Shown in pieces: positions 1-60,321 of a DNA stretch of 60,321 nucleotides. The stretch is from a virus. Lineage: Duplodnaviria; Caudoviricetes. The stretch spans positions 1-60,321 of IMG/VR virus record IMGVR_UViG_3300025154_001315, one strand, 5' to 3'. Position numbers and translations under genes: made by a program. Numbering within the stretch: position 1 is the first letter of the stretch; each line of letters begins with the position of its first letter. The notes under the pieces were generated by a model, which made no database searches, was not told the origin of the DNA, and worked only from the letters and a program-made list of their open reading frames with translations.

Positions 1-6
1 CAGCCT

Positions 7-132
7 CGGTAGGTGCAAGTGGGCGCGTACTGGGAGGTGAACTCCTTGGCCTCCGTGCCGAGGGCTTCCAGCACCTTCACCCTGCTCGCCCTGCACTTGC
101 GTCCGACGAGGCTGCTGGTCCGCCTGGCATCG
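7..132. repeat. 126 bp terminal overlap, identical to 60196-60321 (circular contig)
   Basis: Direct sequence identity; the first 6 nt of the window do not match; the overlap lies inside a CDS. Confidence 0.95.
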
Positions 133-794
133 GCGGGGATGAGCAGCTTGAGCGTCGTGTGCTCGTGGCCGTGCAGGACGGACTTCCACGCGATGAACTC
201 CCCCTCTTGCGGAGGGAGCTGGAAGTGAGGCAGGCCGGCGCCGCTCAGGTCGGCGCTGCGCAGGTCGGCGCTGCGCAGGTTGGCGCTGCGCAGGTCGGCG
301 CTGCGCAGGTTGGCGCTCCTCAGGTTGGCGCCGCTCAGGTCGGCATCGCTCAGGTCGGCGCCGCTCAGGTCGGCGCTGCGCAGGTTGGCATCGCTCAGGT
401 TGGCGCTGCGCAGGTCGGCGCTGCGCAGGTTGGCGCTCCTCAGGTCGGCATCGCTCAGGTTGGCGTCGCTCAGGTTGGCGCTGCGCAGGTCGGCGCTGCG
501 CAGGTTGGCGCTGCGCAGGTTGGCGCTGCGCAGGTCGGCGCTGCGCAGGTTGGCATCGCTCAGGTCGGCATCGCTCAGGTCGGCGCCGCTCAGGTCGGCG
601 CCGCTCAGGTCGGCGCTGCGCAGGTTGGCGCTGCGCAGGTTGGCGCTCCTCAGGTTGGCGTCGCTCAGGTTGGCGCTGCGCAGGTCGGCGCTGCGCAGGT
701 TGGCGCTGCGCAGGTCGGCGCGCTTGCCGTCTTGATCTCCGCGCAGATACTTGGCGTGCAGCTCCAGCACTTCCTTCAGGTTGATGGGGTCCAT
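7..794 (-). CDS. Pentapeptide-repeat protein with DUF5758-like C-terminal domain, 5' part (continues at 60195..60084)
   Basis: ATG at 794 with GGAG upstream; MDPINLKEVLELHAKYLRG then ~32 A(D/N)L(R/S)x repeats; continues ..LLIPADARRTSSLVGRKCRASRVKVL across the join. Confidence 0.9.
231..722. repeat. 15 bp tandem repeat (~32-33 units) encoding the pentapeptide repeats
   Basis: CAGGTYGGCGCTGCG-type units. Confidence 0.95.
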
Positions 795-4485: not shown

Positions 4486-4522
4486 TGCCCCGCCCGCTAG
4501 CACAGGGGCGGGGCTTTTCTTT
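4486..4522 (+). terminator. Intrinsic terminator
   Basis: GCCCCGCCC..GGGCGGGGC followed by TTTTCTTT. Confidence 0.75.
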
Positions 4523-4528
4523 GCTCGC

Positions 4529-5068
4529 GTAGCACGATTCTTGACAATCGTGCTACTCCAGTCATTAAGCAGATTCGTCGAGTTTGCGTGTAAAGTTCCT
4601 TTACACTGATCCTAAAGCCCGATCGACGATCCGCCACCCGAGCTCGACGTATCGATCATACGAGTGAACGAGGTACGACGATCAATCCTCGTCCATCCAA
4701 GAGCGAAGTGCGAAGAGCCGAGTCCCATCTCCCTCCGCCAGAGCTCGAAGTGTCCGGGAAACACGAACTTGACAGTCAGATCCTGAGTTCTTGGACTCCA
4801 AGATCTGAATTCGTCATTTCCTCATACGATCGCGGACGAGTTTGACAGTCTGAGAGCGTAGATCTACATTCCCAGGTCCGAATTCGTCGTTTCCTCGACT
4901 GATCGTAGATCTTGGCTCGTGGTTCGAGGATCTTGGGACCTGGGAGCGGAGATCTTGGCTCTTGGTTGGCGGGATCTCAGTTCTCGGGTCGTCGAATCTG
5001 AAGATCCGGGAAAGTTGACAGCCGGATGCGATAAGATCTAAGATCTAAGTTCCAAATTCGTCAGAATC
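4529..5068. other. Non-coding TC/GA-saturated block with ~17 GATC sites and TTGACA..AATTCGTC modules
   Basis: No ORF >=60 aa; GATC sites counted by eye; 73 bp-spaced degenerate repeat (4769/4842, 4807/4880). Confidence 0.85.
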
Positions 5069-5311
5069 GGGGGTGCGTAATGTAGTGCGCGGGGTGGGTG
5101 CGTACTTTACGCACCTAAAGTAGTGTGTAAGCAAGGTGTGTGCTAGGCTGCTTTGCCCGCGCACTACCATTAGCAAGCGGCCCGTGGGGCAGGGTGCTTG
5201 GCACTTGGCACCCCGGCTGCACTACAGCCCGGCAACGTTGCAGCAACGCGCCCCGGCCTAGGGGCGTGCCACCCCACTTGCAGTTAACCCGTACCATACA
5301 AAGGTAACAAC

Positions 5312-5833
5312 ATGGCCAAGCACACCACCACCACCACCACCACCACTGGCAAGGGCAAGCGCGTGCCCGTGCCCAACGCCAAGCCCCAGGCGCCCGCCAA
5401 GCAGGCCCCGGCCGCCGCGCCCGTGGCCCCGGCCAGCCCCAGCACGGCCGCCGCGCTGGGCAACGCGCCCCTGGGGCAGCCGCCCGCCAGCGTGGCCCCG
5501 CAGGCCAGCCCCGCCCCCCGGTACTTGGCGCTGGCGGGCGTGGCGGCCCTGGCCGGGGACGTGGCCCTGGCCGTGTTGTACAGCGGGGGCAACCCCAAGC
5601 GCGGCAACCCCAAGCCCGGCCAGCCCCGCAGCGCCAGCCAACAGGCGTGGTTGCTGTACGCCGGGTGCGCCACCGTGGGCGCCTACCGCGCGGCCGTGCA
5701 GGCGTACGTGGCCAGCGGCGCCATGCCCTTGCTGGGCCACTGCACCAACGCCAACGCCAACTTGGCGTGGGACGCGGCCCACGGGCTGGTTGCCCTGGGC
5801 GGCGCGGCCCCCCGCACCCTGCCCAGCAAGTAG
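5312..5833 (+). CDS. NPKR..TV..AWD..H domain protein with Thr/Ala/Pro/Lys-rich N-terminus (paralog of 40050..40313)
   Basis: AAGGT RBS; no Glu, 2 Asp; motifs shared with the 40 kb protein. Confidence 0.85.
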   Translation: MAKHTTTTTTTTGKGKRVPVPNAKPQAPAKQAPAAAPVAPASPSTAAALGNAPLGQPPASVAPQASPAPRYLALAGVAALAGDVALAVLYSGGNPKRGNPKPGQPRSASQQAWLLYAGCATVGAYRAAVQAYVASGAMPLLGHCTNANANLAWDAAHGLVALGGAAPRTLPSK

Positions 5834-5847
5834 CGGTTAACCCCTAG

Positions 5848-5882
5848 TGCGCCCCGGCCAACACTGGCCGGGGCGCTTTGTT
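5848..5882 (+). terminator. Intrinsic terminator or attenuator
   Basis: GCGCCCCGGCCA-ACAC-TGGCCGGGGCGC followed by TTTGTT. Confidence 0.7.
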
Positions 5883-5891
5883 AGGTACCCC

Positions 5892-6200
5892 ATGGCCCAA
5901 TGCACTTGCCACCCTGGCCCCCACCAGCCCGGCACCACGGCCCCCGGCTGCCCCACCTGTACCGCCTGCCCCACCTGCCAAGCACCACACTACCACCCCG
6001 CGCAAGCCATACCCTACGGCGTTTGCCCCATAGCGGGCGGCTGCCCCACCTGCCGCTACCCCAACAGCAACCCGTGGCCCCCGCAGTGCCCCTGGTTGTT
6101 GGGCACGGGCCCCAAGCCCAACGCCCCGCAGTGCCACACGGGCCCCTGCCCCCTTTGCCACCTGGGGCACCACGGGTGTTGCGGCTGTAGCGCCCCGTAG
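5892..6200 (+). CDS. Cys/His/Pro-rich metallothionein-like small protein
   Basis: TAGGT RBS; repeated CPTC; no Asp or Glu; both Ile encoded by ATA. Confidence 0.7.
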   Translation: MAQCTCHPGPHQPGTTAPGCPTCTACPTCQAPHYHPAQAIPYGVCPIAGGCPTCRYPNSNPWPPQCPWLLGTGPKPNAPQCHTGPCPLCHLGHHGCCGCSAP

Positions 6201-6216
6201 CGCGTAGTGCGTAGCT

Positions 6217-6251
6217 GCCCGGCCCCCTGCCCAGGGGGCCGGGCTTTTTTT
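6217..6251 (+). terminator. Strong intrinsic terminator closing the TC-free cassette
   Basis: GCCCGGCCCCCTG..CAGGGGGCCGGGC followed by T7. Confidence 0.9.
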
Positions 6252-6430
6252 GTGCCCGTTTTTGGTTTGGCACAACACCTGCTCACTCTCCGGCTTATTG
6301 GAGAGGAGTTCTATGGACGAAGTCCCGAGAACGAAGACCGAGGAACCTTCCCCGAGCCCCGAGCCCCGAGCCCAGACCTCCCAGCCAAGCCCCTTGCACC
6401 TCGTCCGTCAGCGGTGCTAGCTTGTAGCGC

Positions 6431-6922
6431 ATGGATCAAGACGTCATTGTAGAAGCCAAGTTCCTCGTCAGGCCCGCTGAGCCGGACGACTTCGCCTTCA
6501 TCTTCTCCACTTGGCTGAAGAGCTACCGGTACAACAACCAGGACGTCTCCCGCGTCCCGGCCGAGCTCTACTACCGCAAACACCACGAGGTGATTGCCCG
6601 GCTGCGTGACCGCTGCGCCCTCCCAGTCGCCTGCCTCCCTGATTCACCCGCTGTGATCATCGGCTTCGCAGCGCTGGAGCTGCCCCCGGCCCTGCTGAAC
6701 ACCTCCTCTCTCCCACCGCCCGCTCCGGCGCCTCCCGTCATCCACTGGGTCTACGTGAAGCGCGCGTGGCGGCGGATGGGCGTGGCCACTCGGCTTCTCG
6801 GGCAACTCTCCCCCTCCGCCTGCTGCCACTCCCACTGGACCAGCGCCATCCACCCCTGGGCTCACGTCAAGTGGTCCGGCCTCCGCTACGATCCGTACTT
6901 GCAGGTCACCCCGCAGTCCTAG
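6431..6922 (+). CDS. GNAT-family acetyltransferase
   Basis: VRPAEPDD start; IHWVYVKRAWRRMGVATRLL acetyl-CoA-binding motif A. Confidence 0.8.
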   Translation: MDQDVIVEAKFLVRPAEPDDFAFIFSTWLKSYRYNNQDVSRVPAELYYRKHHEVIARLRDRCALPVACLPDSPAVIIGFAALELPPALLNTSSLPPPAPAPPVIHWVYVKRAWRRMGVATRLLGQLSPSACCHSHWTSAIHPWAHVKWSGLRYDPYLQVTPQS

Positions 6923-6931
6923 GAGCACCGC

Positions 6932-7153
6932 ATGAACCCGCTATTCCAGGTCCACACGCTGAACGACGACGGCATCAACAAGGCGAGGGCGATGGCCGAG
7001 GACTTCAGTGCTCTCGTGTCGAAGTTGCAAATCATCCTCGGCGACGGCGGCGTCAAAAGCCGAGAGTTTTCGCTCGTCAAGACGAAGCTCGAAGAGGCCG
7101 CGTTCTTCGCCAAGAAGGCGATGGCCAACCAGCTCGAGAACCAGACGAAGTAG
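6932..7153 (+). CDS. Acb2/Tad1-like hairpin protein (candidate immune-signal sponge)
   Basis: SREFSLVKTKLEEAAFFAKKAMA resembles the SRExSLAxTKLEEA motif. Confidence 0.65.
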   Translation: MNPLFQVHTLNDDGINKARAMAEDFSALVSKLQIILGDGGVKSREFSLVKTKLEEAAFFAKKAMANQLENQTK

Positions 7154-7189
7154 AACTCCCAGTTCACCCCGCAGTCCTAGGAGCACCGC

Positions 7190-7537
7190 ATGGCCAAGTT
7201 ACTCGTCGAGAACATCGCTCGCATCACTCACGAAGCGAACCGCGCCTACTGCCTCGCCCTGGGGGACAAGAGCCAGCTTCCGTGGGACGAAGCGCCGCAG
7301 TGGCAGCGCGACTCCGCCATCAACGGTGTGCGACACACCCTGGAGCACCCGAGCGCTCCGCCCTCCGTCTCTCACGACTCCTGGCTCGCCGAGAAGAAAG
7401 CGGCGGGGTGGAAGTACGGACCCGTCAAGGATCCGGAGAAGAAAGAGCACCCCTGCTTCGTGCCCTACGAGGAGCTTCCCGAGGATCAGAAGCTCAAGGA
7501 CACGCTGTTCCAGAACGTCGTCCGCAGCTTCATCTAG
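7190..7537 (+). CDS. RyR-domain protein
   Basis: HDSWLAEKKAAGWKYGPVKDPEKKEHPCFVPYEELPEDQKLKD. Confidence 0.85.
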   Translation: MAKLLVENIARITHEANRAYCLALGDKSQLPWDEAPQWQRDSAINGVRHTLEHPSAPPSVSHDSWLAEKKAAGWKYGPVKDPEKKEHPCFVPYEELPEDQKLKDTLFQNVVRSFI

Positions 7538-7567
7538 TTCACCCCGCAGTCCTAGAGGAGAAGAACC

Positions 7568-7810
7568 ATGCACTACCGCAACGGACGTGAAGCGAAGAAC
7601 GGCGACAAGATCGTGAAGCTGGAGGGCGGCAAGGTCGTCGCCTTCGGGGTGCTGCACAGCGCCGTCCCCGGCAACGACTTCTGCAACGGAAACATCGCCA
7701 CCATCCAGCCGCCCAACGACTACGCCTGCATGTGCGATTGCCTGCACGTCGACGACGTCGACGCGGTCCTGGCCGAGAAGGGCCTGGACAAGCGCCCCGC
7801 CGGAAAGTAA
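7568..7810 (+). CDS. Hypothetical protein (MHYRNGREAKNGD..)
   Basis: GAGGAG RBS, typical codon usage. Confidence 0.8.
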   Translation: MHYRNGREAKNGDKIVKLEGGKVVAFGVLHSAVPGNDFCNGNIATIQPPNDYACMCDCLHVDDVDAVLAEKGLDKRPAGK

Positions 7811-7844
7811 TCGGAAGTTCACCCCGCAGTCCTAGGAGCCCACG

Positions 7845-8165
7845 ATGCCCAGGCGTCTCCCGAAGCACGAAGTCGTCGAGTCCGAAGAGCCCGAGATCGT
7901 CACCGAGAACCCAACCGGCTTCTTCAAGGCCCCCAAGGCGCGGACGGTGATCCACGTCCGTACGCACGTCACCACGCAGATCGGCGCGTTCGGCAGCAGC
8001 CTGGACGCCAGCAAGAACAACCTCAAGATGGAGCTGCGCCCCGACCTGGGCGGCGTGCTGGTCTGCGCCAACTTCAACGGCAAGGAGCGCGAGTTCCTGG
8101 TCCCCTTCTCCATCATCGCCCACGCCGAGCTGGCGGTCGAGGTCGTCGACGTCGAGAAGGAGTAG
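7845..8165 (+). CDS. Hypothetical protein
   Basis: RBS within the repeat; typical codon usage. Confidence 0.75.
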   Translation: MPRRLPKHEVVESEEPEIVTENPTGFFKAPKARTVIHVRTHVTTQIGAFGSSLDASKNNLKMELRPDLGGVLVCANFNGKEREFLVPFSIIAHAELAVEVVDVEKE

Positions 8166-8193
8166 CCCCTCCCCGCCCGCAAGGAGCACGAAG

Positions 8194-8694
8194 ATGGTTG
8201 GAAAGCTCACCAGTCCGAAGCGGGTCCTGTCCCTCAAGCGGAGGGAGATCGCCCTCGCCCTCCGCTTGCAGGGCTACACCTACCACGAAATCGGCAAGCG
8301 GCTCAAGATCAGCCACGTCTCCGCGTGGCAGCACGTCAAGTCGGCGATGGAGGAGCACCGCAAGGCCCTGGCGGAGGACGTGGAGCAGGTCCGCGACATG
8401 GAGGTCAACCGCCTCGACGGGATGCTGGAGAAGCTCTACCCCCGCCGCAAGGACCCGCGCACGGCGGACACCATCCTGCGCTTGATGGACCGGCGCTCCA
8501 AGCTCCTGGGCCTGGACGTGCCGAATAAGGTGGACGTCAACGTCACCGGCCTGGAGAAGCTCAGCGATGAAGAACTCGTCAAGAAGGCCGAAGCCGTCTT
8601 CCGGCGCTCTGCCCGCAAGTCTGCAGAAGAAGCTGAGCGATCTGGAGAGGGCTCAGTTGATCCTGACGATTCGGGAGGCGCAGAAGAGGCATAG
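8194..8694 (+). CDS. terS: Terminase small subunit (HTH)
   Basis: LRLQGYTYHEIGKRL HTH; RRSKLLGLD motif; upstream of TerL. Confidence 0.75.
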   Translation: MVGKLTSPKRVLSLKRREIALALRLQGYTYHEIGKRLKISHVSAWQHVKSAMEEHRKALAEDVEQVRDMEVNRLDGMLEKLYPRRKDPRTADTILRLMDRRSKLLGLDVPNKVDVNVTGLEKLSDEELVKKAEAVFRRSARKSAEEAERSGEGSVDPDDSGGAEEA

Positions 8695-10105
8695 GCCATC
8701 GTTCCTCGACCTAGACTTCACCGCGCAGACCCGCTTCCTCAACGACACTTCCCCGCTCAAGGTGGGTCTCTGCACCCGCCGAGCGGGGAAGTCTTTTGGG
8801 ATGGGGCTGGGGCTGCTCCGGGCGGCGTACTACACCCCCGGCTGCAACTGCCTCTACGTCGCCCTGACACGCGACTCCGCCAAGAAGATCATGTGGAAGG
8901 ACGTGCTCAAGGTCATCGACAAGGAGGAGGGGCTGAACTGCAAGTTCCACGAGAACGACCTGACCTGCACCCTCCCCGACCCCATCAACAGCGTCATCTA
9001 CCTGCTGGGCGCCGACAGCAGCGAGAAGGAGAAGGCCAAGATGCTTGGCCAGAAGTATCGGCGCATCGTCATCGACGAGGCGAGCCAGTACTCCATCAAC
9101 CTGGAGGAGCTCGTCTACGGCACGCTCAAGCCCAGCGTGGCCGACTACCGTGGCGACATCTACCTCATCGGCACCCCCAGCGATATCCACAAGGGCCTCT
9201 ACTACGAGCTGACGCAGGGCCAGGACCCGACCACGCCGCACACCTGGAAGGCGAAGGGTTGGTCTGGGCACGCCTGGAGCGCCTTCCACAATCCGTACAT
9301 GGCGGAGAAGTGGCAGGCCGAGATCGACGACCTGAAGCTGGCGAACCCGCTCATCGACGAGACGCCCCTCTTCCAGCAGAACTACTACGGGCGTTGGTGC
9401 ATCAACGAGAGCGCCCTGGTGTACCGCTTCAACCGGGAGAGGAACCTGTGGTCTGGCGCCCTCCCCAAGTACGACAAGGGTGACTGGCACTTCATCCTTG
9501 GGGTGGACCTCGGCTACAACGACCCCTCCGCCTTCAGCCTCTGCGCCTACCACGACAACGACCCCTGCCTCTACGTGGTCTACTGCGAAGCCAAGGCGAA
9601 GATGGACATCACCGAGGTGGCGGAGCGCATCCGCATCTACCAATACCGCGTCCAGCACGAGTTCAAGCAGACGATCGAGGCGATGGTGGTGGACGGCAGC
9701 AACAAGCAGGCCGTGGAGGAGATGCGCCGCCGCCACGACCTGCCGGTTCAGGCCACCATGAAGACGGGCAAGTCCGACTTCATCGAGCTGATGAACGGCG
9801 ACTTCATCATGGGGAAGATCAAGGTCCACGAGACGCAGGCATACGACCTGACCGTGGAGTACGGCAGCCTCATCTGGAACGAGCACAGCATCAAGCGTGA
9901 GGAGCACCCCGCTTGCCCCAATCACTGTACTGACGCTACCCTGTATGCGTGGCGCAAGTGCTATCAGTATCTGAGCACGAAGCCGCAGAGCGCCCCCAAG
10001 CCCGGCACCAAGGAGTGGTTTGACGCGGAGGCGGCGGAGATGGAAGCGATGGAGCTCGCCCGTCTTGAGGAAGAGAAGGTCATGGAAAGGGACTGGTCAT
10101 GGTGA
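8567..10105 (+). CDS. terL: Terminase large subunit
   Basis: Walker A RRAGKS, Walker B IVIDEA, GTP motif, nuclease GVDLG and HCTDA; start uncertain. Confidence 0.9.
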   Translation: MKNSSRRPKPSSGALPASLQKKLSDLERAQLILTIREAQKRHRPSFLDLDFTAQTRFLNDTSPLKVGLCTRRAGKSFGMGLGLLRAAYYTPGCNCLYVALTRDSAKKIMWKDVLKVIDKEEGLNCKFHENDLTCTLPDPINSVIYLLGADSSEKEKAKMLGQKYRRIVIDEASQYSINLEELVYGTLKPSVADYRGDIYLIGTPSDIHKGLYYELTQGQDPTTPHTWKAKGWSGHAWSAFHNPYMAEKWQAEIDDLKLANPLIDETPLFQQNYYGRWCINESALVYRFNRERNLWSGALPKYDKGDWHFILGVDLGYNDPSAFSLCAYHDNDPCLYVVYCEAKAKMDITEVAERIRIYQYRVQHEFKQTIEAMVVDGSNKQAVEEMRRRHDLPVQATMKTGKSDFIELMNGDFIMGKIKVHETQAYDLTVEYGSLIWNEHSIKREEHPACPNHCTDATLYAWRKCYQYLSTKPQSAPKPGTKEWFDAEAAEMEAMELARLEEEKVMERDWSW

Positions 10106-49894: not shown

Positions 49895-50106
49895 TTCACA
49901 CCCCAGCGTTGAATTGCGTCCATCATCTTCACGTCGCACGGGCTCTCGTGACCCCACTGACCCTGTGTGGCGTGTGCAGCGACGCGATACCAGCACCACA
50001 TCACCAGCGACTTTGGCAGGTGCCACGCGATCCAGATGGTCGCCCTCTGGACAAGGCGCCGCCGCAAGGCGCCTGCCTCCCACAACTTCCACTTGAGCCA
50101 CTTCAT
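49891..50106 (-). CDS. Small Trp-rich protein
   Basis: AAGGAGG RBS; coupled. Confidence 0.6.
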   Translation of the reverse strand: MKWLKWKLWEAGALRRRLVQRATIWIAWHLPKSLVMWCWYRVAAHATQGQWGHESPCDVKMMDAIQRWGVK

Positions 50107-51194
50107 CACTTGGCCTCCTTCTTCGGGTGCGCCGCCAGCCACGTCGCCGCCGCCAGCTTCCAGTCGGTGGCGATGCAGCCCTCCAGGTAGCCCGCGTCCC
50201 GGTTCTTCCAGGCGTTCCACAGGGGCGCGGCCACGAACTTCCACCACGGGTGCGTGAAGCTGCTGACCTGCACCTCCTGCCCGCCGTCAAACAGCAGGAA
50301 GAACGTCTCCAGGTCCTGGTGCCAGTAGTGGAGCTGGTCCTGGCGGTGGCAGGAGTTGTCCGGGTCGACGAACATGGGCTGCGGCTTCACCGCCCCCAGC
50401 GCGTAGGGGCTGCGCTCCTGGTAGACGCTCGGGCTCCACCCCGCCTTGATGCGCTCCCACACCTTGCCGCCCTCGCCCCCGGTGTAGACGTGGAGGCTGT
50501 CCGAGAACTGGACGTAGGTGCCCACCTCCAAGCCCAGGCGGGCGGCCATGTACTCCTGGAGGATGGAGAAGTGGACGACGTTGGCCCCGTAGGCGCCCCA
50601 GATGAGGTCGTTGCTGCGGTTGCAGACGGTCATGTTAAGCCGCCCGTCCCTCACCTTGAAGTAGGCGTTCGTGTTGCAGGGTATGTCAGTGCTGTCGATC
50701 CCCGCCTCCACGTGCGTCCCGTAGTCCACTCCGTGCAGGTCGTACGGGGGGCGCCACATCTGGAGCACTGCGCGCCTACTGTCGGGCTTCTGCTTCAGGT
50801 GGTTCACCAGGAAGTCGAGCTGGTCCACCCCGAACGCCTTGCGCCAACGGTAGCCGTAGCTCCCCTGCATCCTGTGGCCGTCGTCGCTGTAGTTGCGGAA
50901 CTTGGGGACCAAGTACTCCATGAACCGCACATCGTCGCGACCGGCGAGGAGCCACAGAGACTCGAACAGGTGGAGGAAGGGGTTGGCATCCCGCTCCTTG
51001 TAGAACAGCACCCGCTCCAGGGGGCGTTCGTAGTACGTGGCCACCGGCTCGTCGAACTCCAGGGTGTCCCCGTTGCGGCTAGTCTGCCGGTGCCAGCTCG
51101 TACCCTCGCCCTTGTCCTCACCCTCGTCGTACTCCAGCAGCATGAACAGCACCTTCCGCAGCGCGTCGTTGACACCTCGTGCGTGGATCTCCAT
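50106..51194 (-). CDS. Thymidylate-synthase-fold enzyme, probable dUMP hydroxymethylase
   Basis: SRNG, YGYRW, DSRRAV, catalytic IPCN, RSND..GAYGAN (Asn, dUMP-type), SLHVY. Confidence 0.85.
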   Translation of the reverse strand: MEIHARGVNDALRKVLFMLLEYDEGEDKGEGTSWHRQTSRNGDTLEFDEPVATYYERPLERVLFYKERDANPFLHLFESLWLLAGRDDVRFMEYLVPKFRNYSDDGHRMQGSYGYRWRKAFGVDQLDFLVNHLKQKPDSRRAVLQMWRPPYDLHGVDYGTHVEAGIDSTDIPCNTNAYFKVRDGRLNMTVCNRSNDLIWGAYGANVVHFSILQEYMAARLGLEVGTYVQFSDSLHVYTGGEGGKVWERIKAGWSPSVYQERSPYALGAVKPQPMFVDPDNSCHRQDQLHYWHQDLETFFLLFDGGQEVQVSSFTHPWWKFVAAPLWNAWKNRDAGYLEGCIATDWKLAAATWLAAHPKKEAK

Positions 51195-51655
51195 CACTTC
51201 ACCTCCCTGCGAATGCCGACCATTCCGTAGTTCCACAGCCCGAAGAAGTGCCTGTCCTGCGCCCTGTCGGCCAGCCGCTTCAGCCCGAGGATGTCATCCA
51301 GCGCGGCCACCGGCACGCCATCGATCATGTACGCCCTGCCGGCGTTGAGATAGCGTTGGCGCAGCCCGCTCGCGGGGATGTAGTCCACCTTGATGCCGTC
51401 GATCTCCGTTGTCGCGCTGCCCTCGGTGGAGCCCTTCGCCAACTTGGCCTCGATGCCCTCGCCACTCGGGGCCTTGGTCACCAGGAAGTCGATGTCGCCC
51501 GGGATGACGTCGAACCCCAACATCCACAGCGCCGCCGTTCCGATCAGCACGCCCGTCGCGCTGTCGTCCTTCCTCAGCAGGATGTGAGCCTTCTTGATGA
51601 CTTCGCGGCCAACCTCAGCTTGCTTGCACAGCTTCATTTCGTTCATCTCCATCAC
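51194..51655 (-). CDS. Pol-beta-superfamily nucleotidyltransferase-like protein
   Basis: IGTAA..GDIDF..KVD..LK....RAQD. Confidence 0.7.
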   Translation of the reverse strand: MMEMNEMKLCKQAEVGREVIKKAHILLRKDDSATGVLIGTAALWMLGFDVIPGDIDFLVTKAPSGEGIEAKLAKGSTEGSATTEIDGIKVDYIPASGLRQRYLNAGRAYMIDGVPVAALDDILGLKRLADRAQDRHFFGLWNYGMVGIRREVK

Positions 51656-51656
51656 T

Positions 51657-52427
51657 TCACCCCTTCTTCAGCGCCTTGGCCCACTGCACCCTCACGTCCA
51701 TCATCCCAGCCTCCATGCCGGTCCACGCCTTCTTCTCCCGCACCGTCACGGCGTGGGGGTACATCGCAGCCAGCCTGCGGGCACTGTCCGTCTGGCAGGG
51801 GGTGGTCCTCCAGGTGGAGCACCCGCCCTGGACGTTGCTCGGGCCTGCGTTCAGTCGGTACTCCAGGCTGAGGCGGTTGGGCAGCCCGGCGGACAGGAGC
51901 TGCAGAGTCATGTTGAAGTCCTCCATCGTGGCCACGTCCTTGGCCAGCCCCTTGCCGAAGGTGGCCTTGGCGTCCATCACCATCGGCACGTTGTAGGCCA
52001 GCGCGTACATCATCCGCTTGCACTCCAGCCACATCTCCGTGCTGGCCCAATAGGCGGTCCGCACCATCCAGCCGCAGTGGGCGCGCACGTCGAGCGTCTT
52101 CTCCAGCCAGTTGAAGGCGCCCACCATCTGCTGGTCCGTGGCGTTCTTGATCTTCATGTCGGCGCGTCGCACCTGGATGGTCAGGTCGTCGTCCAGCATG
52201 ACGAACTTCTGGATATCCTGCTCCGCGCAGTAGCGCAGGATGTAGTCGCGCGTGGCGGTGATGCCCTTGGCCTTGCACCAGAGCACGTTGCGCCCCCTGC
52301 TCTGGTGGCTGGGCGCCTCGCTGGGCGGGCACACCAGCTTCGTGTGCCTCTTCACGGCGTCGGGCAGTCGGTCGTAGGTCCACTGCCGGTCCACTCGGTT
52401 CATCGTCGGGATGAATACGTTGATCAC
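51657..52427 (-). CDS. GT-A glycosyltransferase, TAGT/GREB1/JGT-like
   Basis: VFIPTMNR, GITATRDYI, MLDDD, EDFNMTLQLL, GGC motifs. Confidence 0.8.
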   Translation of the reverse strand: MINVFIPTMNRVDRQWTYDRLPDAVKRHTKLVCPPSEAPSHQSRGRNVLWCKAKGITATRDYILRYCAEQDIQKFVMLDDDLTIQVRRADMKIKNATDQQMVGAFNWLEKTLDVRAHCGWMVRTAYWASTEMWLECKRMMYALAYNVPMVMDAKATFGKGLAKDVATMEDFNMTLQLLSAGLPNRLSLEYRLNAGPSNVQGGCSTWRTTPCQTDSARRLAAMYPHAVTVREKKAWTGMEAGMMDVRVQWAKALKKG

Positions 52428-53015: not shown

Positions 53016-53969
53016 TTAGGCTATCTCGATACCGTTGCGCTCATGGGGGCGCTGATGGGGCGGGAGGTAGGTGGAGCGCGGCTTGCCCACGCCAGTCACC
53101 ACCTTCATTCGCTTTGCGTGTTCACAGAGACAGAATTGGACGTCGTGAGCGCTGAGCGTGCCGCTGTTCGGGAACCACTTCGTCCAGTTCTGGTTCACCA
53201 GCACGCGGAGGGCCACGACCTCCTCCAGCCACGTGTGCGAGTTGAGCGTGAAGTCCGGGTCGCGGCCCGCGATGTAGTTGAGCCCACGCCGCGCCCCCGG
53301 CCCCACCGGGGTCCAGGTCTCCTCGTCCCAGAACAGACCGGGGTAACAGAGGATGAAGTCCTGGAGGACCTCCTTCACCATGAAGCCGGTGCCACCGAAC
53401 CCCTCCAGCTTCATCATCTCCTCCCCCAGCGCCGCCCAGCTCGGGCTCTTGAACTTGAGCAGCGGAGCCAGCCGCTCCTTGTAGGCCGCCGCCAAGCCGC
53501 TCAGGTAGTCCACCACCACATCCTCCTTGGGCTCCTTCCGGCCGCCGTTGGTTATGACGTAGGCTCCGGTGAACACCTCCTGCCGCACGCGCACCCGCTT
53601 GTGGGGCCCGCGCACCCGCTCCACAGGGCTCTGGAGGCGCTCCTTGGCCACGCGCAGCACGCGGGCAGCCTGCCACCTTGCCTGCCAGCCAACAGCCTGT
53701 GCGAACCCTGCCGTTCCGAAGTACCTAAAGGTAGCGCAGTTGAGCAACGCCTGCTCGTACTTCCCCGGCTTGACGTTGGCCTTGTAGATGGCGAGGAAGG
53801 CCTGCGTCGTGCGGTCGTTCACGCGGCGGACATTGGTGAAGCTGTACTTCTGCAGGATCTCATCCTTGGTCCAGGGCCACGGCGCCCCGCTCTCCTTCTT
53901 GAGCCGGATGTTCTCGCGCTCGTGGATGTAGTAGAGGAACTTCTTGATGCCTTCGCTGCTAGCCTTCAT
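53016..53969 (-). CDS. aGPT-Pplase1 / 5-hmdU DNA kinase helical-domain family protein
   Basis: ERENIRLKKESG..PWTKDEILQKYSFTNVRR.NDRTT; GPGARRGL; QFCLCE. Confidence 0.85.
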   Translation of the reverse strand: MKASSEGIKKFLYYIHERENIRLKKESGAPWPWTKDEILQKYSFTNVRRVNDRTTQAFLAIYKANVKPGKYEQALLNCATFRYFGTAGFAQAVGWQARWQAARVLRVAKERLQSPVERVRGPHKRVRVRQEVFTGAYVITNGGRKEPKEDVVVDYLSGLAAAYKERLAPLLKFKSPSWAALGEEMMKLEGFGGTGFMVKEVLQDFILCYPGLFWDEETWTPVGPGARRGLNYIAGRDPDFTLNSHTWLEEVVALRVLVNQNWTKWFPNSGTLSAHDVQFCLCEHAKRMKVVTGVGKPRSTYLPPHQRPHERNGIEIA

Positions 53970-54616
53970 CGCTCACCTCGTACGTAGATGGCCGTCGTGT
54001 GCCACAACTTCTCGTTGTCCAGCTTCGGCGGCTTGAGCCACCTGAAGCCCTGCTCCTGCAACTCCACGTCCAACAGGTTGGCCGCCTCCCACTGCCCCTT
54101 CTTCTGTAGATGGTACTCGATGAGCACCGCCTGGAGCCGCTTGGGCAGCGCCCGGCCCAACAGCAGGTCGTACTCGGCGCCCTCGCAGTCCATCTTGAGC
54201 ACGGTGAAGCTACACAGCTTGAGCAGCGCCCCCATGCGGACCACCGTCACCGGCACGGGCTCCCGCCCGCGCGTGGGGACCGTGCTGTGGCTCCCCTTGT
54301 TCGGGCCAGGGCTGGTCCACAGGGGGATGGTCGCCCCTTGGTAGCTGTCACCCACCACCGCGCAGTTCATGGGGCGGACGTTGTGGCCGATGTTCCGCTT
54401 GAGCAGCGCGTAGTTCTCGGGCTCGGGCTCCACCGCCGTCACGGACTTGCACTGCTCCCCCGCCCACTGCGCGTAGCTGCCGATGTTGGCGCCGATGTCC
54501 AGCACCACGTCGGACTTGCCCAGCGGGAGGCGCTGGTAGCCCTTGAGCTCGTTGATGACGTACTTGTCCATCGTACCGGGACGGACCCAGTAAGTCTTGT
54601 AGGCGTCGTACTTCAT
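53966..54616 (-). CDS. FkbM-family SAM methyltransferase
   Basis: VLDIGANIG, EPEPENY, LKMDCEGAEY. Confidence 0.9.
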   Translation of the reverse strand: MKYDAYKTYWVRPGTMDKYVINELKGYQRLPLGKSDVVLDIGANIGSYAQWAGEQCKSVTAVEPEPENYALLKRNIGHNVRPMNCAVVGDSYQGATIPLWTSPGPNKGSHSTVPTRGREPVPVTVVRMGALLKLCSFTVLKMDCEGAEYDLLLGRALPKRLQAVLIEYHLQKKGQWEAANLLDVELQEQGFRWLKPPKLDNEKLWHTTAIYVRGER

Positions 54617-55119
54617 AGCACCTCCTCCAGCTTCGCCACGTCCACGCGCCCAAGGTGGATGAGCTGCTCCATCAGCCATTTGTCGCGGGGGCTGCGACTG
54701 GCGTAGGTGTCCTCCGCGTAGAGCACCGTGTTGATGCCGTTGGCCAGCACCACGTCCTTGAAGCACTGCGGGCAGGGGATGTGCGTGCAGATGAGGGCAG
54801 TGTTGATGCTGCCCATGTTGACCCCGGCCAGCAGCGCCTTGCGGGCGGCGTTGACTTCCGCGTGGATGACGAGGTCGTACTTGGTGAGGTAGAACATGTG
54901 CCCCAGCTTGTCGTCCACCTCGCCCGTGCGGTTGTTCCACAGCGACTCGTCCTCCTCCACCCCAGGCGGGAAGCCGTTGTAGCCGAGGTGAACGCTGCCC
55001 GTCGCGGCGTCGTAGATGGCCGCCCCCACCTTGGTCGAGGGGTCCTTGCTCCGGCTCTCCGCCCACAACCGGCAGATGGCCATCACCGACTCCGGCACGC
55101 CCAGCTTGCTCTTCAGCAT
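54613..55119 (-). CDS. dCMP deaminase
   Basis: SKDPSTKVGA, GYNGFP, HAEVNA, PCPQC; GGAGG RBS at the internal ATG. Confidence 0.9.
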   Translation of the reverse strand: MLKSKLGVPESVMAICRLWAESRSKDPSTKVGAAIYDAATGSVHLGYNGFPPGVEEDESLWNNRTGEVDDKLGHMFYLTKYDLVIHAEVNAARKALLAGVNMGSINTALICTHIPCPQCFKDVVLANGINTVLYAEDTYASRSPRDKWLMEQLIHLGRVDVAKLEEVL

Positions 55120-55184
55120 CACTTGCCTCCCTTCGGGTACGACGCGCGCCACGCATAGCCCCGCGCCTTCTGCTTCGCTATCAT

Positions 55185-55225
55185 CGCCTTGATCTTGCGC
55201 GGCTGGGCCGCGCAAGATCAAGGCG
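55185..55225. repeat. Perfect 19 bp inverted repeat with 3 nt loop
   Basis: CGCCTTGATCTTGCGCGGC-TGG-GCCGCGCAAGATCAAGGCG. Confidence 0.9.
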
Positions 55226-55550
55226 GCCACCGGGCGAACCTCCACCACGCGGCGCTTCAATACGCGTCCGCCGCGCAGGCGGTCGGCGTCCTTCTTCGCG
55301 TACTGTGCGTCCTCCAACGCCTCCTGCGCCACGCGCTTCTGCGTCGCGAGCTGCTGCTTCAGCAGCTTCGCCTCCTCGCGCAGCCGCACGACCTCCGCTT
55401 TCAGCCCTTCGAAGTTCATGTCGTACTTCACACCCTGCACCTTCGGGCGCGGCTTGAAGCCCTGGCAGGTTCCCCTTCCGGCACTGCCAATCGGCACCCT
55501 GTCCTCGCCGGCCGCGCTGCATCCGCCATCGCAGTCCTTGCAGTTCATTG

Positions 55551-55802
55551 TCACGCCTCCTTGAGCGCCGACAGCCGCTTGCGGTCCAGCACCTGGATGA
55601 CCCCGTAAGCCTTGCAGGGCCCCAGCACACCCTCGGCACGCTATCTGTTGATAATGGTGCTGGTAAAGCTCCGGTTGCAGCCCGCCATCTCCGCGAGCTT
55701 AGCCTGCGTCACGCGCACCACCCCGTCCTCCACCGGCACCTCCACTGCGTCCAGGGGGTAGCCCAGCTTAGTCAACATCCCAACCAGTTCGCTTAGCTTC
55801 AT
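55551..55802 (-). pseudogene. Crp/MrpC-like HTH protein interrupted by an in-frame TAG (55643-55641)
   Basis: TQAKLAEMAGCNRSFTSTIINR*RAEGVLG..IQVLDRKRL; the domain pattern continues past the stop. Confidence 0.7.
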
Positions 55803-60083: not shown

Positions 60084-60321
60084 CTACATCCTGAACTCGT
60101 CGGCCTCTGCGCGCGTCATGAAGAAGTGAATGCCTTGGGCGCACTCCACGCGGATGTCGTCGCTGTAGCCGTCGGGCTCAGCCACCTCGCCCACGCGGTA
60201 GGTGCAAGTGGGCGCGTACTGGGAGGTGAACTCCTTGGCCTCCGTGCCGAGGGCTTCCAGCACCTTCACCCTGCTCGCCCTGCACTTGCGTCCGACGAGG
60301 CTGCTGGTCCGCCTGGCATCG
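60084..60321 (-). CDS. 3' part of the pentapeptide-repeat/DUF5758-like gene (joins 794..7)
   Basis: YRVGEVAEPDGYSDDIRVECAQGIHFFMTRAEA. Confidence 0.85.
   Translation of the reverse strand, partial: DARRTSSLVGRKCRASRVKVLEALGTEAKEFTSQYAPTCTYRVGEVAEPDGYSDDIRVECAQGIHFFMTRAEADEFRM

What the first reader, a model, noticed from the sequence alone, without database searches (positions are those of the whole stretch)
5068..6283. A 1.2 kb two-gene cassette written without TC/GA dinucleotides: candidate modification-free 'boot' module
Seen: about 1215 bp contain no TC and only two GA, where on the order of 100 would be expected, and both edges are sharp. The constraint overrides coding preferences. There is no Glu, only 2 Asp in ~275 codons, Ser is AGC, Ile is the rare ATA, and the RBSs are AAGGT/TAGGT instead of this phage's usual GGAG. 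The unit includes its upstream region, two genes and terminators. Inference: the phage hypermodifies T in 5'-TC-3' context, and this cassette must stay unmodified so host RNA polymerase can read it from incoming virion DNA and make factors that unlock the rest. Alternative: avoidance of a TC/GA-targeting host defence in first-entering DNA.
Basis: partly seen in the sequence, partly recalled or inferred. Interest (0 to 1): 0.97.

Follow-up and report, generated by a model that had tools for sequence, protein, structure and literature searches.

The report
Phage gene cassette lacking TC/GA dinucleotides
A 1.2-kb self-contained gene unit in a groundwater phage that chemically modifies its thymines is written entirely without the DNA step TC/GA, a rule strong enough to ban whole amino acids from its protein, and a relative shows the same rule, which points to a cassette kept invisible to something that reads that step.

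Summary
Window 5068-6282 has 0 TC and 2 GA, against 66 and 57 expected. The edges are sharp and the next largest TC gap in the genome is 155 bp. The rule covers non-coding leader, spacers, terminators and codon junctions (0 against 15.1 expected in gene A). It therefore acts on the nucleic acid, not on codons.

Gene A is a real gene with the phage's own codon usage. ORF B is doubtful. The phage carries a 5-hmdU-kinase thymidine-hypermodification cluster.

Two new results show the rule is maintained by selection:
- The only homologue of gene A (53% identity) has no Glu, Phe or Ile.
- A related IMG/VR phage (G001) has an unrelated 177-aa gene unit with 10 TC/GA against 72 expected and the same layout.

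Ten comparison phages, nine with the kinase, have no such island. G001 shows no modification genes in the 69% of its genome that is available. The promoters in front of the island are the most TC/GA-dense DNA of the genome.

The best reading (0.4) is a unit kept free of a TC-addressed mark, probably the phage's own thymine hypermodification. I found no report of such an island in the papers searched.

The parts
4493..4512 (+). Intrinsic-terminator-like hairpin ending the upstream rightward operon of small orphan genes
4551..5067 (.). Non-coding region with the highest TC/GA density of the genome (113 per 500 nt, z about +4.4). It holds 17 of the genome's 167 GATC and 6 of its 10 AGATCT.
4769..5062 (+). 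Three tandem promoter-like repeats. Each has TTGACAG (4769, 4842, 5015) and, 32-33 nt after it, the box AATTCGTC (4808, 4881, 5055). The -10-like hexamers are TACATT and TAAGAT for the second and third repeat. A fourth, looser copy lies at 4541 and a fifth at 2235.
   Evidence: the first repeat read by eye
5068..6282 (.). TC/GA-free island: 0 TC, 2 GA, 72-75% G+C
5068..5311 (+). Non-coding leader with no TC/GA. It contains the palindrome GGTGCGTA-CTT-TACGCACC (5097-5115) and a 12-bp long-range complement (5082-5093 with 5157-5168). RNA fold z-score is -2.23. No reading frame is open.
5206..5221 (+). Exact match to the sigma54 -24/-12 core TGGCAC-N5-YTGCW, 90 nt upstream of gene A
   Evidence: consensus recalled
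5312..5833 (+). Gene A, 173 aa: disordered Ala/Pro/Lys/Thr-rich N-terminus followed by three predicted helices. No Glu, Phe or Ile, and 2 Asp. Codon log-likelihood is 0.475 per codon (known genes 0.455-0.627) and GC3 is 0.98.
5849..5876 (+). Terminator T1 (12-bp stem, 11 G-C pairs, then TTTGTT)
5892..6200 (+). ORF B, 102 aa, rich in Cys, Pro and His (CPTC x3, CPLC). It is the best of the six frames but its codon log-likelihood is -0.18, so coding is uncertain. It has no self-hit in the protein collection.
6217..6244 (+). Terminator T2 (12-bp stem, 11 G-C pairs, then T7)
6268..6283 (+). Second exact sigma54-like -24/-12 match. Its last base is the first TC after the island. It lies 30 nt upstream of the start (ATG 6313) of the rightward operon that holds the GNAT, Acb2/Tad1-like, terminase and structural genes.
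53016..53969 (-). 5-hmdU DNA kinase (HMUDK_hel, E 1.8e-27)
50106..51236 (-). Thymidylate-synthase homologue (candidate dUMP hydroxymethylase)
51657..52427 (-). TAGT-like DNA glycosyltransferase (Pfam TAGT; PHROG 842)
53966..55554 (-). FkbM-type methyltransferase domain (C-terminal part of ORF 53966-55156) and a dCMP-deaminase-domain protein (54613-55554). The two listed ORFs overlap, so the true methyltransferase start is probably further downstream.

Best explanation
The island is a small, self-contained expression unit: leader, gene A, possibly ORF B, and two terminators. Purifying selection keeps it free of one of the ten base-pair steps, 5'-TC-3'/5'-GA-3', at the level of duplex nucleic acid. 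The most likely reason is that TC is the address of this phage's own post-replicative thymine hypermodification. In that pathway 5-hmdU is incorporated at every T, and the 5-hmdU DNA kinase and later enzymes then decorate only T followed by C. The unit would thus be the one stretch of virion DNA that carries no hypermodified base.

Why that is selected is inferred, not shown. The version I favour is that the unit is a 'safe-mode' cassette. It would stay intact and transcribable when modification-sensing host defences act on the modified bases of the incoming genome. Such defences include modification-dependent nucleases such as END nucleases, and glycosylases. The small basic product of the cassette would counter them.

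Shown: the exclusion, its sharp limits, its action on coding and non-coding DNA and on codon junctions, its maintenance in a 53%-identical homologue, a parallel unit in a related phage, and the presence of the modification genes.
Inferred: the TC address, the unmodified state, and the purpose.
For: - The exclusion is real and acts at nucleotide level: (0 TC and 2 GA against 123 expected; junctions 0 against 15.1; non-coding parts 0 against 47).
- Both TC and its complement GA are excluded, as expected for a mark on duplex DNA.
- It is not mutational erasure. GC3 is 0.98 and the codon log-likelihood matches other phage genes. Leu is CTG/TTG and Val is GTG, not the CTT/GTT that C-to-T hypermutation would leave.
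- The modification cluster is present. No TGT/DpdA is present (control positive in 14 of 14 genomes), so a GA-addressed deazaguanine is unlikely.
- Dinucleotide addresses have precedent. HMUDK preference for TG or TC: PMC6449724 (section 10 read). Phage T-dioxygenase 5mYOX97 prefers NTC: PMC13229309 (passages). Hypermodified T in a TG motif in Pbunavirus: bioRxiv 10.1101/2025.03.31.646159 (passages). A strict GA motif for dPreQ0: PMC10484667 (passages).
- 35.3% of T are in TC context.
- Palindrome test. In four Pseudomonas HMUDK phages, 6-mer palindromes containing CA/TG (p < 0.001) and GA/TC (p 0.008-0.027) escape the general depletion, which fits the published TS preference. In this phage GA/TC is the only class with p < 0.1 (median O/E 0.67 against 0.52, p 0.093), and CA/TG palindromes are strongly avoided (CAGCTG 3 against 42 expected).
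- The rule is maintained over evolution. Homologue P0005 has 78 substitutions and 26 extra residues but 0 Asp/Glu/Phe/Ile among them, against about 22 expected. Its one Asp sits at the conserved WD.AHG position.
- G001 has a parallel unit.
- Modification-dependent nucleases that hit T-hypermodified phages, and small phage inhibitors of them, exist (10.1101/2025.03.31.646159, passages).
- The neighbouring genes include an Acb2/Tad1-hairpin protein, and a pentapeptide-repeat protein lies elsewhere in the genome, so the phage invests in counter-defence.
Against: - No chemical or signal-level data exist for this phage, so the TC address is a guess.
- The palindrome signal is weak (p 0.093).
- 9 of 9 other HMUDK phages, including M6, ViI and PhiW-14, lack any step-free island. 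Such a cassette is therefore not a general need of T-hypermodifying phages.
- G001 has a TC/GA-poor unit but no HMUDK, ThyA or TAGT in 35.5 kb, and none in the syntenic primase-PolA interval. That contig is 69% complete.
- G002, the closest relative by primase (51% identity), has HMUDK and TAGT but no island in its 21.6 kb (48% complete).
- The sigma70-like promoters in front of the island are maximally TC/GA-dense, so they would be the most modified DNA of the virion.
- A cut or lesion elsewhere in the genome would still harm the phage. The benefit therefore needs stepwise DNA entry, repairable damage, or help to later co-infecting phages, and none of these is shown.
- No aGPT-Pplase/AADT-type transferase was found among the ORFs scanned, so the pathway after the kinase is unknown.
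Confidence: 0.4

Rival explanations
1. The step TC/GA is the target of an outside agent rather than of the phage's own modification. Candidates are a host defence or a phage host-shutoff enzyme that attacks unmodified or single-stranded DNA at TC, such as a TC-preferring cytosine deaminase or a short-site nuclease. The unit must survive that agent because it is expressed first or very heavily. The rest of the genome would be covered by other means, such as modification, timing of entry, or the unit's own product.
For: - G001 has a TC/GA-poor unit without detectable T-modification genes.
- The non-template (+) strand has 0 TC and the template strand 2, the direction expected if transcription-exposed single strands are the target.
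- Per-site selection must be strong, as for a lethal hit.
- Local purging of target sites from privileged early DNA is known in T5-like phages (PMC10644984, passages).
- TC-preferring deaminases and T4 endonuclease IV (cuts at TC in C-containing single-stranded DNA) are recalled, not checked here.
Against: - No such agent is identified.
- The rest of the genome has TC/GA at 1.07-1.10 of expectation, so any threat must be strictly local or temporal.
- The part of the promoter region that P1 and P2 transcribe (about 4800-5067) is TC/GA-rich.
- 0 against 2 is too small a difference to carry the strand argument.
Confidence: 0.25
2. The constraint acts on the RNA. The transcript must lack UC and GA to escape a sequence-specific endoribonuclease or RNA-binding repressor. 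Examples are toxin RNases, HEPN nucleases, and CsrA-type GGA binders together with anti-Shine-Dalgarno-like CCUCC. This would resemble natural ACA-less mRNAs that escape MazF.
For: - The free zone runs from about 17 nt after the predicted start of P3 to about 30 nt after terminator T2, so it tracks the transcribed unit.
- The same holds in G001, from the terminator to about 75 nt upstream of the ATG.
- GA exclusion removes every GGAG-type Shine-Dalgarno sequence.
Against: - It needs two independent motifs that happen to be exact reverse complements. A duplex-level reader needs only one.
- The free zone extends 32 nt past the T-run of T2 (probability about 0.02 at genome density).
- Transcripts from P1 and P2 would carry the TC/GA-rich 4800-5067 stretch anyway.
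- No RNase with this specificity is known to me (recalled).
Confidence: 0.1
3. The zone is a cis-acting DNA element, such as the first-entering terminal segment, a packaging or replication site, or the landing area of a sigma54 enhancer-promoter system. It must stay free of a bound or spreading factor keyed to the TC/GA step. The open reading frames would be secondary.
For: - The only two exact sigma54-core matches in the genome both lie in the island on the + strand, each in front of a gene start (at least 2 matches in 0 of 5000 island shuffles).
- The right edge of the island coincides with the end of the second match.
- The best named relatives of TerL are T5-like phages (24.6-24.8% identity), and the portal and capsid proteins are SU10-like. 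Stepwise DNA entry is therefore conceivable.
- Both proteins are low-complexity and fold poorly in silico.
Against: - Gene A has full codon adaptation and a conserved homologue, so it is a functional protein.
- 1.2 kb is long for a recognition site.
- No bEBP is encoded in the phage (control positive in 14 of 14 genomes).
- The genome ends are unknown. The assembly is circular with a 126-nt overlap, and the runs gave contigs only.
- The sigma54 motif was noticed after the fact.
Confidence: 0.1

Closest known systems
First-step-transfer (FST) region of T5-like phages
   Same: A privileged early-expressed segment from which target sites of host nucleases are purged, while the rest of the genome carries them. 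Sensitivity follows sites in that segment (PMC10644984, passages). TerL of this phage is distantly T5-like.
   Different: In T5 the purged sites are 4-8 bp recognition sequences of particular enzymes, and the region is about 8-10 kb in a terminal repeat. Here a 2-bp step is excluded outright from 1.2 kb, at the cost of whole amino acids. Position at a genome end and two-step entry are untested.
T7 early leader: tandem A1-A3 host promoters followed by gene 0.3 (Ocr) (recalled)
   Same: Three tandem strong host-type promoters drive a first small gene, plausibly a counter-defence gene, ahead of the rest of the rightward genes.
   Different: T7's early region is not motif-free and T7 DNA is unmodified. 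Here two strong terminators close the unit after 1.2 kb.
Dinucleotide-addressed phage DNA hypermodification (HMUDK TG/TC preference; 5mYOX97 NTC; Pbunavirus TG; iggy DpdA GA)
   Same: Shows that phage modification enzymes can read a single dinucleotide, including TC and GA (PMC6449724, PMC13229309, 10.1101/2025.03.31.646159, PMC10484667).
   Different: The passages I read in these papers do not describe a motif-free island. CAjan (GA/GGC motif), M6, YuA, ViI and PhiW-14 have none by my scan.
Motif-less mRNAs that escape sequence-specific endoribonucleases (such as ACA-less transcripts and MazF; recalled)
   Same: Local, selection-driven absence of a short motif that overrides codon preference.
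   Different: Those avoid a motif on the sense strand only. Here a motif and its reverse complement are both absent, in non-coding DNA too.

Membership tests
Thymidine-hypermodifying phage (5-hmdU kinase pathway) | 5-hmdU DNA kinase (HMUDK) | tested here: met
   PF18723, E 1.8e-27, 96.8 bits against a cut-off of 25
Thymidine-hypermodifying phage (5-hmdU kinase pathway) | dUMP hydroxymethylase (thymidylate-synthase homologue) and the phage's own DNA polymerase | tested here: inconclusive
   Thymidylat_synt hit (73.4 bits) and DNA_pol_A hit. The profile cannot separate a hydroxymethylase from an ordinary thymidylate synthase.
Thymidine-hypermodifying phage (5-hmdU kinase pathway) | Transferase acting on the phosphorylated base (aGPT-Pplase/AADT) | tested here: not met
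   No such family appeared among the cluster ORFs scanned with Pfam and PHROGs. A TAGT-like glycosyltransferase and an FkbM-type methyltransferase are present instead. Several ORFs remain unassigned.
Thymidine-hypermodifying phage (5-hmdU kinase pathway) | Hypermodified thymidine in virion DNA, in a defined sequence context | not testable with these tools
   Only metagenome contigs exist.
T5-type first-step-transfer region | Lies in the terminal segment that enters first; entry pauses at a stop signal | not testable with these tools
   The assembly is circular with a 126-nt end overlap. The runs are contigs without end information.
T5-type first-step-transfer region | Free of the target sites that the rest of the genome carries | tested here: met
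   True for the TC/GA step only. The island is not poor in other palindromes (15.6 against 7.7 per kb).
Motif-less mRNA escaping an endoribonuclease | Motif avoided on the sense strand of the transcript only | tested here: not met
   TC and its complement GA are both excluded (0 and 2), and the zone runs 32 nt past the terminator.
sigma54-dependent promoter | GG at -24 and GC at -12 with the TGGCAC-N5-TTGCW core in front of a gene | tested here: met
   Two exact matches to TGGCAC-N5-YTGCW, at 5206 and 6268. The consensus is recalled and the motif was noticed after the fact.
sigma54-dependent promoter | Cognate AAA+ enhancer-binding activator | tested here: not met
   No PF00158 in the phage. 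A host activator cannot be tested because the host is unknown.

The most novel reading that the evidence does not exclude
A lineage of groundwater phages keeps a dedicated 'safe-mode' gene cassette free of the single base-pair step (TC/GA) that addresses a DNA mark, here the phage's own thymine hypermodification. The cassette would be the only modification-blind DNA in the virion. It would remain uncut, unexcised and transcribable when modification-sensing immunity attacks the incoming genome, and its small basic protein would disarm that immunity. If so, step-free islands are a sequence-only read-out of a phage's modification motif and a pointer to its first-line counter-defence gene.
Probability: 0.2. 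Interest if true: 0.95.

Novelty: categorically new. Interest (0 to 1): 0.88.

Why it matters
Whatever the mechanism, the complete local exclusion of one of the ten base-pair steps is a kind of sequence constraint I could not find described. It is strong enough to remove Glu, Phe and Ile(ATC) from a conserved protein. They cover open-access papers and bioRxiv only, and supplements were closed.

If the step is the address of the phage's own thymine hypermodification, three things follow:
- The sequence specificity of a hypermodification could be read from a genome alone. That specificity is still open for most such phages.
- It would show that phages sometimes need DNA that is not modified.
- It would single out an orphan protein family (gene A and P0005) and an analogous protein in G001 as candidates for a new early counter-defence or take-over function.

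If the step is instead the target of an outside agent, the island reveals an unknown TC-directed activity in the host environment. Either way the idea is directly testable by recoding.

Tried and rejected
Hypermutation (TC to TT by a deaminase) as the origin is rejected. The island is more G+C-rich than the genome and GC3 is 0.98. There are no CTT, ATT or TTT codons and only 3 GTT.

A codon-, tRNA- or amino-acid-level cause is rejected. The non-coding parts and the codon junctions are equally empty.

A foreign origin is rejected for gene A. Its codon log-likelihood equals that of the phage's own genes.

General restriction-site avoidance is rejected. Other palindromes are twice as dense in the island as elsewhere.

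A GA-addressed deazaguanine is unlikely, because no TGT/DpdA is present. The Tet_JBP search was silent, but so was its control, so it says nothing.

The GA-free stretch at 227-734 is explained by the 15-nt repeats of a pentapeptide-repeat gene on the minus strand. It is not a second island.

Searches that led nowhere:
- No DNA match of 5000-9000 in the phage collection.
- No PHROG or Pfam hit for A or B.
- No Rfam hit near threshold.
- Atlas look-alikes were uninformative.
- No PDB relative (best E 1.3).
- AlphaFold single-sequence models were of low confidence (pLDDT 50.8 and 37.2), so no fold search was run.
- Related-locus scans with gene A, the GNAT, HMUDK and P0005 found nothing.
- Eight TerL relatives showed no island in the 4-21 kb fetched for each.

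Sequencing runs: no RNA holder is listed. All 11 runs are Logan contigs of groundwater or soil metagenomes. The 4 runs laid gave identical low-depth pieces, no variants in the island, no molecule ends and no usable depth.

The DNA of the 1901-bp ENA contig that encodes P0005 could not be reached. Complex prediction was not used because there was no partner to test.
Full report
WHAT THE WINDOW IS. The window is a whole IMG/VR virus record of 60,321 nt, which CheckV rates 100% complete. Its first 7-132 nt repeat the last 126 nt, so it is a circular assembly of about 60.2 kb. It has 65% G+C.

Genes run rightwards from about 1,550 to 36,400. In order these are small orphan genes, the island, counter-defence-like genes, the terminase, SU10-like portal and capsid genes, large virion proteins and an M23 peptidase. 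Genes run leftwards from about 1,400 across the junction down to about 36,700. These include a pentapeptide-repeat protein, a primase-helicase, the DNA-modification cluster, PolA, a PD-(D/E)XK nuclease and an SNF2 helicase.

The phage occurs in groundwater metagenomes of several studies. Only contigs are available.

THE OBSERVATION. Positions 5068-6282 contain 0 TC and 2 GA. Both GA are GAC Asp codons. From the island's own base composition 66.1 TC and 56.7 GA are expected. The TC gap is 1216 nt and the next largest in the genome is 155. The three largest combined TC/GA gaps (512, 491 and 213 nt) all lie inside the island, and the fourth is 73.

The edges are abrupt: 15 sites lie in the 65 nt before the island and 17 in the 67 nt after it. 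No other base-pair step shows anything similar in this genome.

WHAT LEVEL THE RULE ACTS ON. The rule is not a by-product of protein or codon choice.
- The 244-nt non-coding leader, the 58-nt spacer and the 82 nt after ORF B hold 0 sites, against 30.0, 7.1 and 10.1 expected.
- Within gene A no codon junction forms TC or GA, whereas codon-order shuffles give 15.1 +/- 2.7 (0 of 20,000 shuffles reach 0).
- A motif and its exact reverse complement are excluded together. That is what a reader of duplex nucleic acid would impose, and an RNA-level reader would need two unrelated specificities.

The rule is not mutational decay. Gene A has GC3 0.98 and a codon log-likelihood of 0.475 per codon, inside the range of the phage's known genes (0.455-0.627). 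It uses CTG/TTG and GTG where the genome normally uses CTC (34%) and GTC (38%).

The price is paid in protein. There is no Glu, Phe or Ile and only two Asp, against 12.7% Asp+Glu in the structural proteins. Both ribosome-binding sites are non-canonical (AAAGGT and TAGGT), while 32 of 43 other starts examined have GGAG, GAGG or AGGA.

ANATOMY OF THE UNIT.
- A terminator-like hairpin (4493-4512) closes the upstream operon.
- A 540-nt non-coding region follows. It is the most TC/GA-dense DNA of the genome (113 per 500 nt; mean 61.5, sd 11.7) and holds 17 of the 167 GATC.
- That region carries three tandem promoter-like repeats. Each has TTGACAG and, 32-33 nt later, the box AATTCGTC. Two of the three are called by the sigma70 scan. 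Looser copies of the same pair lie at 4541 and 2235.
- The free zone starts 24 nt after the -10 hexamer of the last promoter.
- It holds a structured leader (fold z-score -2.23), gene A (5312-5833) and a strong terminator (5849-5876).
- ORF B follows (5892-6200). It is the best of the six frames, but its codon log-likelihood is -0.18 and it has no self-hit in the protein collection.
- A second strong terminator follows (6217-6244), and the zone ends 32 nt after its T-run.

The only two exact matches in the genome to the sigma54 core TGGCAC-N5-YTGCW both lie in the island on the + strand. One is 90 nt before gene A. The other (6268-6283) ends exactly at the island's right edge, 30 nt before the first ATG of the downstream operon (island shuffles give a mean of 0.0086 and never two matches in 5000). 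I noticed this motif after the fact, and the phage encodes no sigma54 activator. I report it as a lead.

THE PROTEINS. Gene A encodes 173 aa: a disordered Thr/Ala/Pro/Lys-rich N-terminal 67 residues followed by three predicted helices (pLDDT 50.8). ORF B would give a 102-aa Cys/Pro/His-rich peptide with no confident fold (pLDDT 37.2). Neither has a Pfam, PHROG, PDB or informative Atlas match.

An exhaustive phmmer search of 1.84 billion representatives found two proteins. One is gene A's own cluster. The other is P0005 (187 aa, 53% identity, E 8e-16), from a single 1901-bp ENA contig.

EVIDENCE THAT THE RULE IS MAINTAINED. P0005 has 0 Glu, 0 Phe, 0 Ile and one Asp. That Asp sits at the conserved WD.AHG position, which is also one of gene A's two Asp. 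P0005 differs from gene A at 78 aligned positions and has 26 extra residues. A BLOSUM62-based expectation gives about 22 Asp/Glu/Phe/Ile among these; none is seen (rough P about 1e-11).

Phe and Ile are lost together with the acids, while Leu, Val, Tyr, Trp and Met are kept. TC/GA avoidance predicts exactly this in a genome that writes Phe as TTC (95%) and Ile as ATC (91%). A merely basic protein would not show it.

A SECOND INSTANCE. I scanned 10 IMG/VR loci that encode relatives of the primase. One of them, L068, stands out (record G001, 35.5 kb, 69% complete, primase 39% identical).
- A 721-nt zone has 10 TC/GA against 72 expected. The best 500-nt window has 5 against 48.
- It is the only outlier among the 18 relatives' loci that does not involve the rare TA step.
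- The zone is a single 177-aa gene with no sequence similarity to gene A and no Pfam family.
- That gene is again Ala/Pro/Lys-rich and basic, with 0 Glu and 4 Asp.
- It has 0 TC/GA at codon junctions against 15.7 +/- 3.0 expected.
- It is 72% G+C in a 60% contig and ends at a strong terminator.
- The densest TC/GA window of its contig lies directly upstream.

The same anatomy thus recurs with a different protein and the same base-pair step.

LINK TO THE MODIFICATION. The phage encodes a 5-hmdU DNA kinase, a thymidylate-synthase homologue, a dCMP-deaminase-domain protein, an HD phosphohydrolase, a nucleotide-kinase-like protein, a TAGT-like glycosyltransferase, an FkbM-type methyltransferase domain and its own PolA. 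This is the hallmark of post-replicative thymidine hypermodification (PMC8989533 and PMC5889632, passages read).

Published work supports a dinucleotide address:
- Resistant restriction sites in M6, ViI and PhiW-14 point to a kinase preference for TG or TC (PMC6449724, section 10 read).
- A phage T-dioxygenase prefers NTC (PMC13229309, passages).
- Pbunavirus carries hypermodified T in a TG motif (10.1101/2025.03.31.646159, passages).
- The iggy DpdA has a strict GA motif (PMC10484667, passages).

In this genome 35.3% of T are followed by C.

As an internal test I compared the depletion of 6-mer palindromes with and without each step. In four Pseudomonas HMUDK phages, CA/TG-containing (p < 0.001) and GA/TC-containing (p 0.008-0.027) palindromes escape depletion, which matches the published TS preference. 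In this phage CA/TG palindromes are heavily avoided, and GA/TC is the only class with p < 0.1 (0.093). That is weak but in the predicted direction. No DpdA is present.

WHAT SPEAKS AGAINST A SIMPLE LINK.
- None of nine other HMUDK phages (PhiJL001, Lucjan, Ab18, PaMx11, Epa5, M6, YuA, PhiW-14, ViI) has a step-free island. Nor does CAjan, which has a GA/GGC motif.
- G001 shows no HMUDK, ThyA homologue or TAGT in its 35.5 kb, and none in the primase-PolA interval where this phage keeps them.
- G002, the closest relative by primase (51% identity), has HMUDK and TAGT but no island in its 21.6 kb.
- Both of those contigs are incomplete.
- Complete relatives G003, G004 and G005 lack HMUDK and lack islands.

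The association is therefore open.

The idea that the cassette must be unmodified so that host polymerase can read it fits poorly.
- The promoters would be the most modified DNA of the virion.
- Promoters of the same type stand in front of ordinary genes (2235, 4541).
- The leftward operon, which encodes the modification enzymes themselves, has normal TC/GA levels and must be read from incoming DNA.

A better-fitting version is that the unit stays free of the mark so that modification-sensing immunity cannot cut, excise or stall it. Modification-dependent END nucleases restrict T-hypermodified phages, and small phage proteins inhibit them (10.1101/2025.03.31.646159, passages). T5-like phages show that target sites are purged specifically from the segment expressed before the rest is safe (PMC10644984, passages). 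The best named relatives of TerL are T5-like phages, but at only 24.6-24.8% identity, with no hit covering 80% of the query. Whether this phage enters stepwise is unknown.

VERDICT. Its cause is not established. I give 0.4 to exclusion of the phage's own TC-addressed thymine mark, 0.25 to an outside TC-directed agent, 0.1 to an RNA-level cause and 0.1 to a cis-acting DNA role. I found no description of such an island in four full-text searches. Supplements were closed and subscription journals are not covered.

Noticed in passing
window 3-794 (-), continuing across the circular junction: A pentapeptide-repeat protein (Pfam Pentapeptide, E 1.6e-48, plus DUF5758) built from 15-nt DNA repeats. 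The repeats leave a 507-nt GA-free stretch on the + strand only. It may be a DNA-mimic counter-defence protein at the head of the leftward operon.
   Followed up: partly
window 6431-7537: Directly downstream of the island lie a GNAT acetyltransferase (6431-6922), a 73-aa protein with an Acb2/Tad1 hairpin domain (6932-7153, E 2.2e-07; an anti-CBASS/anti-Thoeris sponge family) and a RyR-domain protein (7190-7537). Three of these starts share the upstream string CAGTCCTAGGAGC.
   Followed up: partly
window 5206-5221 and 6268-6283: The only two exact sigma54-core matches (TGGCAC-N5-YTGCW) in the genome. Both are on the + strand, inside the island and in front of gene starts. The phage has no sigma54 activator gene. 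ViI has 2 such matches in 157 kb, and the other nine comparison phages have none.
   Followed up: partly
window 2235, 4541, 4769, 4842, 5015; L068 1214-1221: A recurrent pair: TTGACA, then about 32 nt later the box (A/G)ATTCGT(C). It occurs five times on the + strand. AATTCGTC itself occurs 3 times against 0.3 expected. One copy also stands next to the TC/GA-poor unit of the relative G001.
   Followed up: partly
window 4600-5045: A cluster of 17 GATC, including 6 AGATCT, in 450 nt. Elsewhere the genome has about 2.5 GATC per kb and GATC is under-represented overall (O/E 0.63). Possible meanings are a binding array, an origin or a packaging signal.
   Followed up: no
whole window; comparison phages: 6-mer palindromes are strongly avoided genome-wide (O/E 0.58; for example CAGCTG 3 against 42 and GTGCAC 0 against 13). 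In four Pseudomonas HMUDK phages only palindromes without T-containing steps are avoided. Palindrome avoidance by step class may be a usable sequence-only proxy for modification context.
   Followed up: partly
window 53966-55554 (-): The listed methyltransferase ORF (396 aa) and deaminase ORF (313 aa) overlap by about 540 nt in different frames. The domain hits sit in the non-overlapping parts, so the true methyltransferase gene is probably about 210 aa. The deaminase has an unassigned 150-aa N-terminal extension.
   Followed up: no
window 1-132 and 60196-60321: IMG/VR labels the record 'linear', but its ends overlap by 126 nt (the first 6 nt differ). It is a circular assembly, and a minus-strand ORF reads in frame across the junction.
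   Followed up: yes
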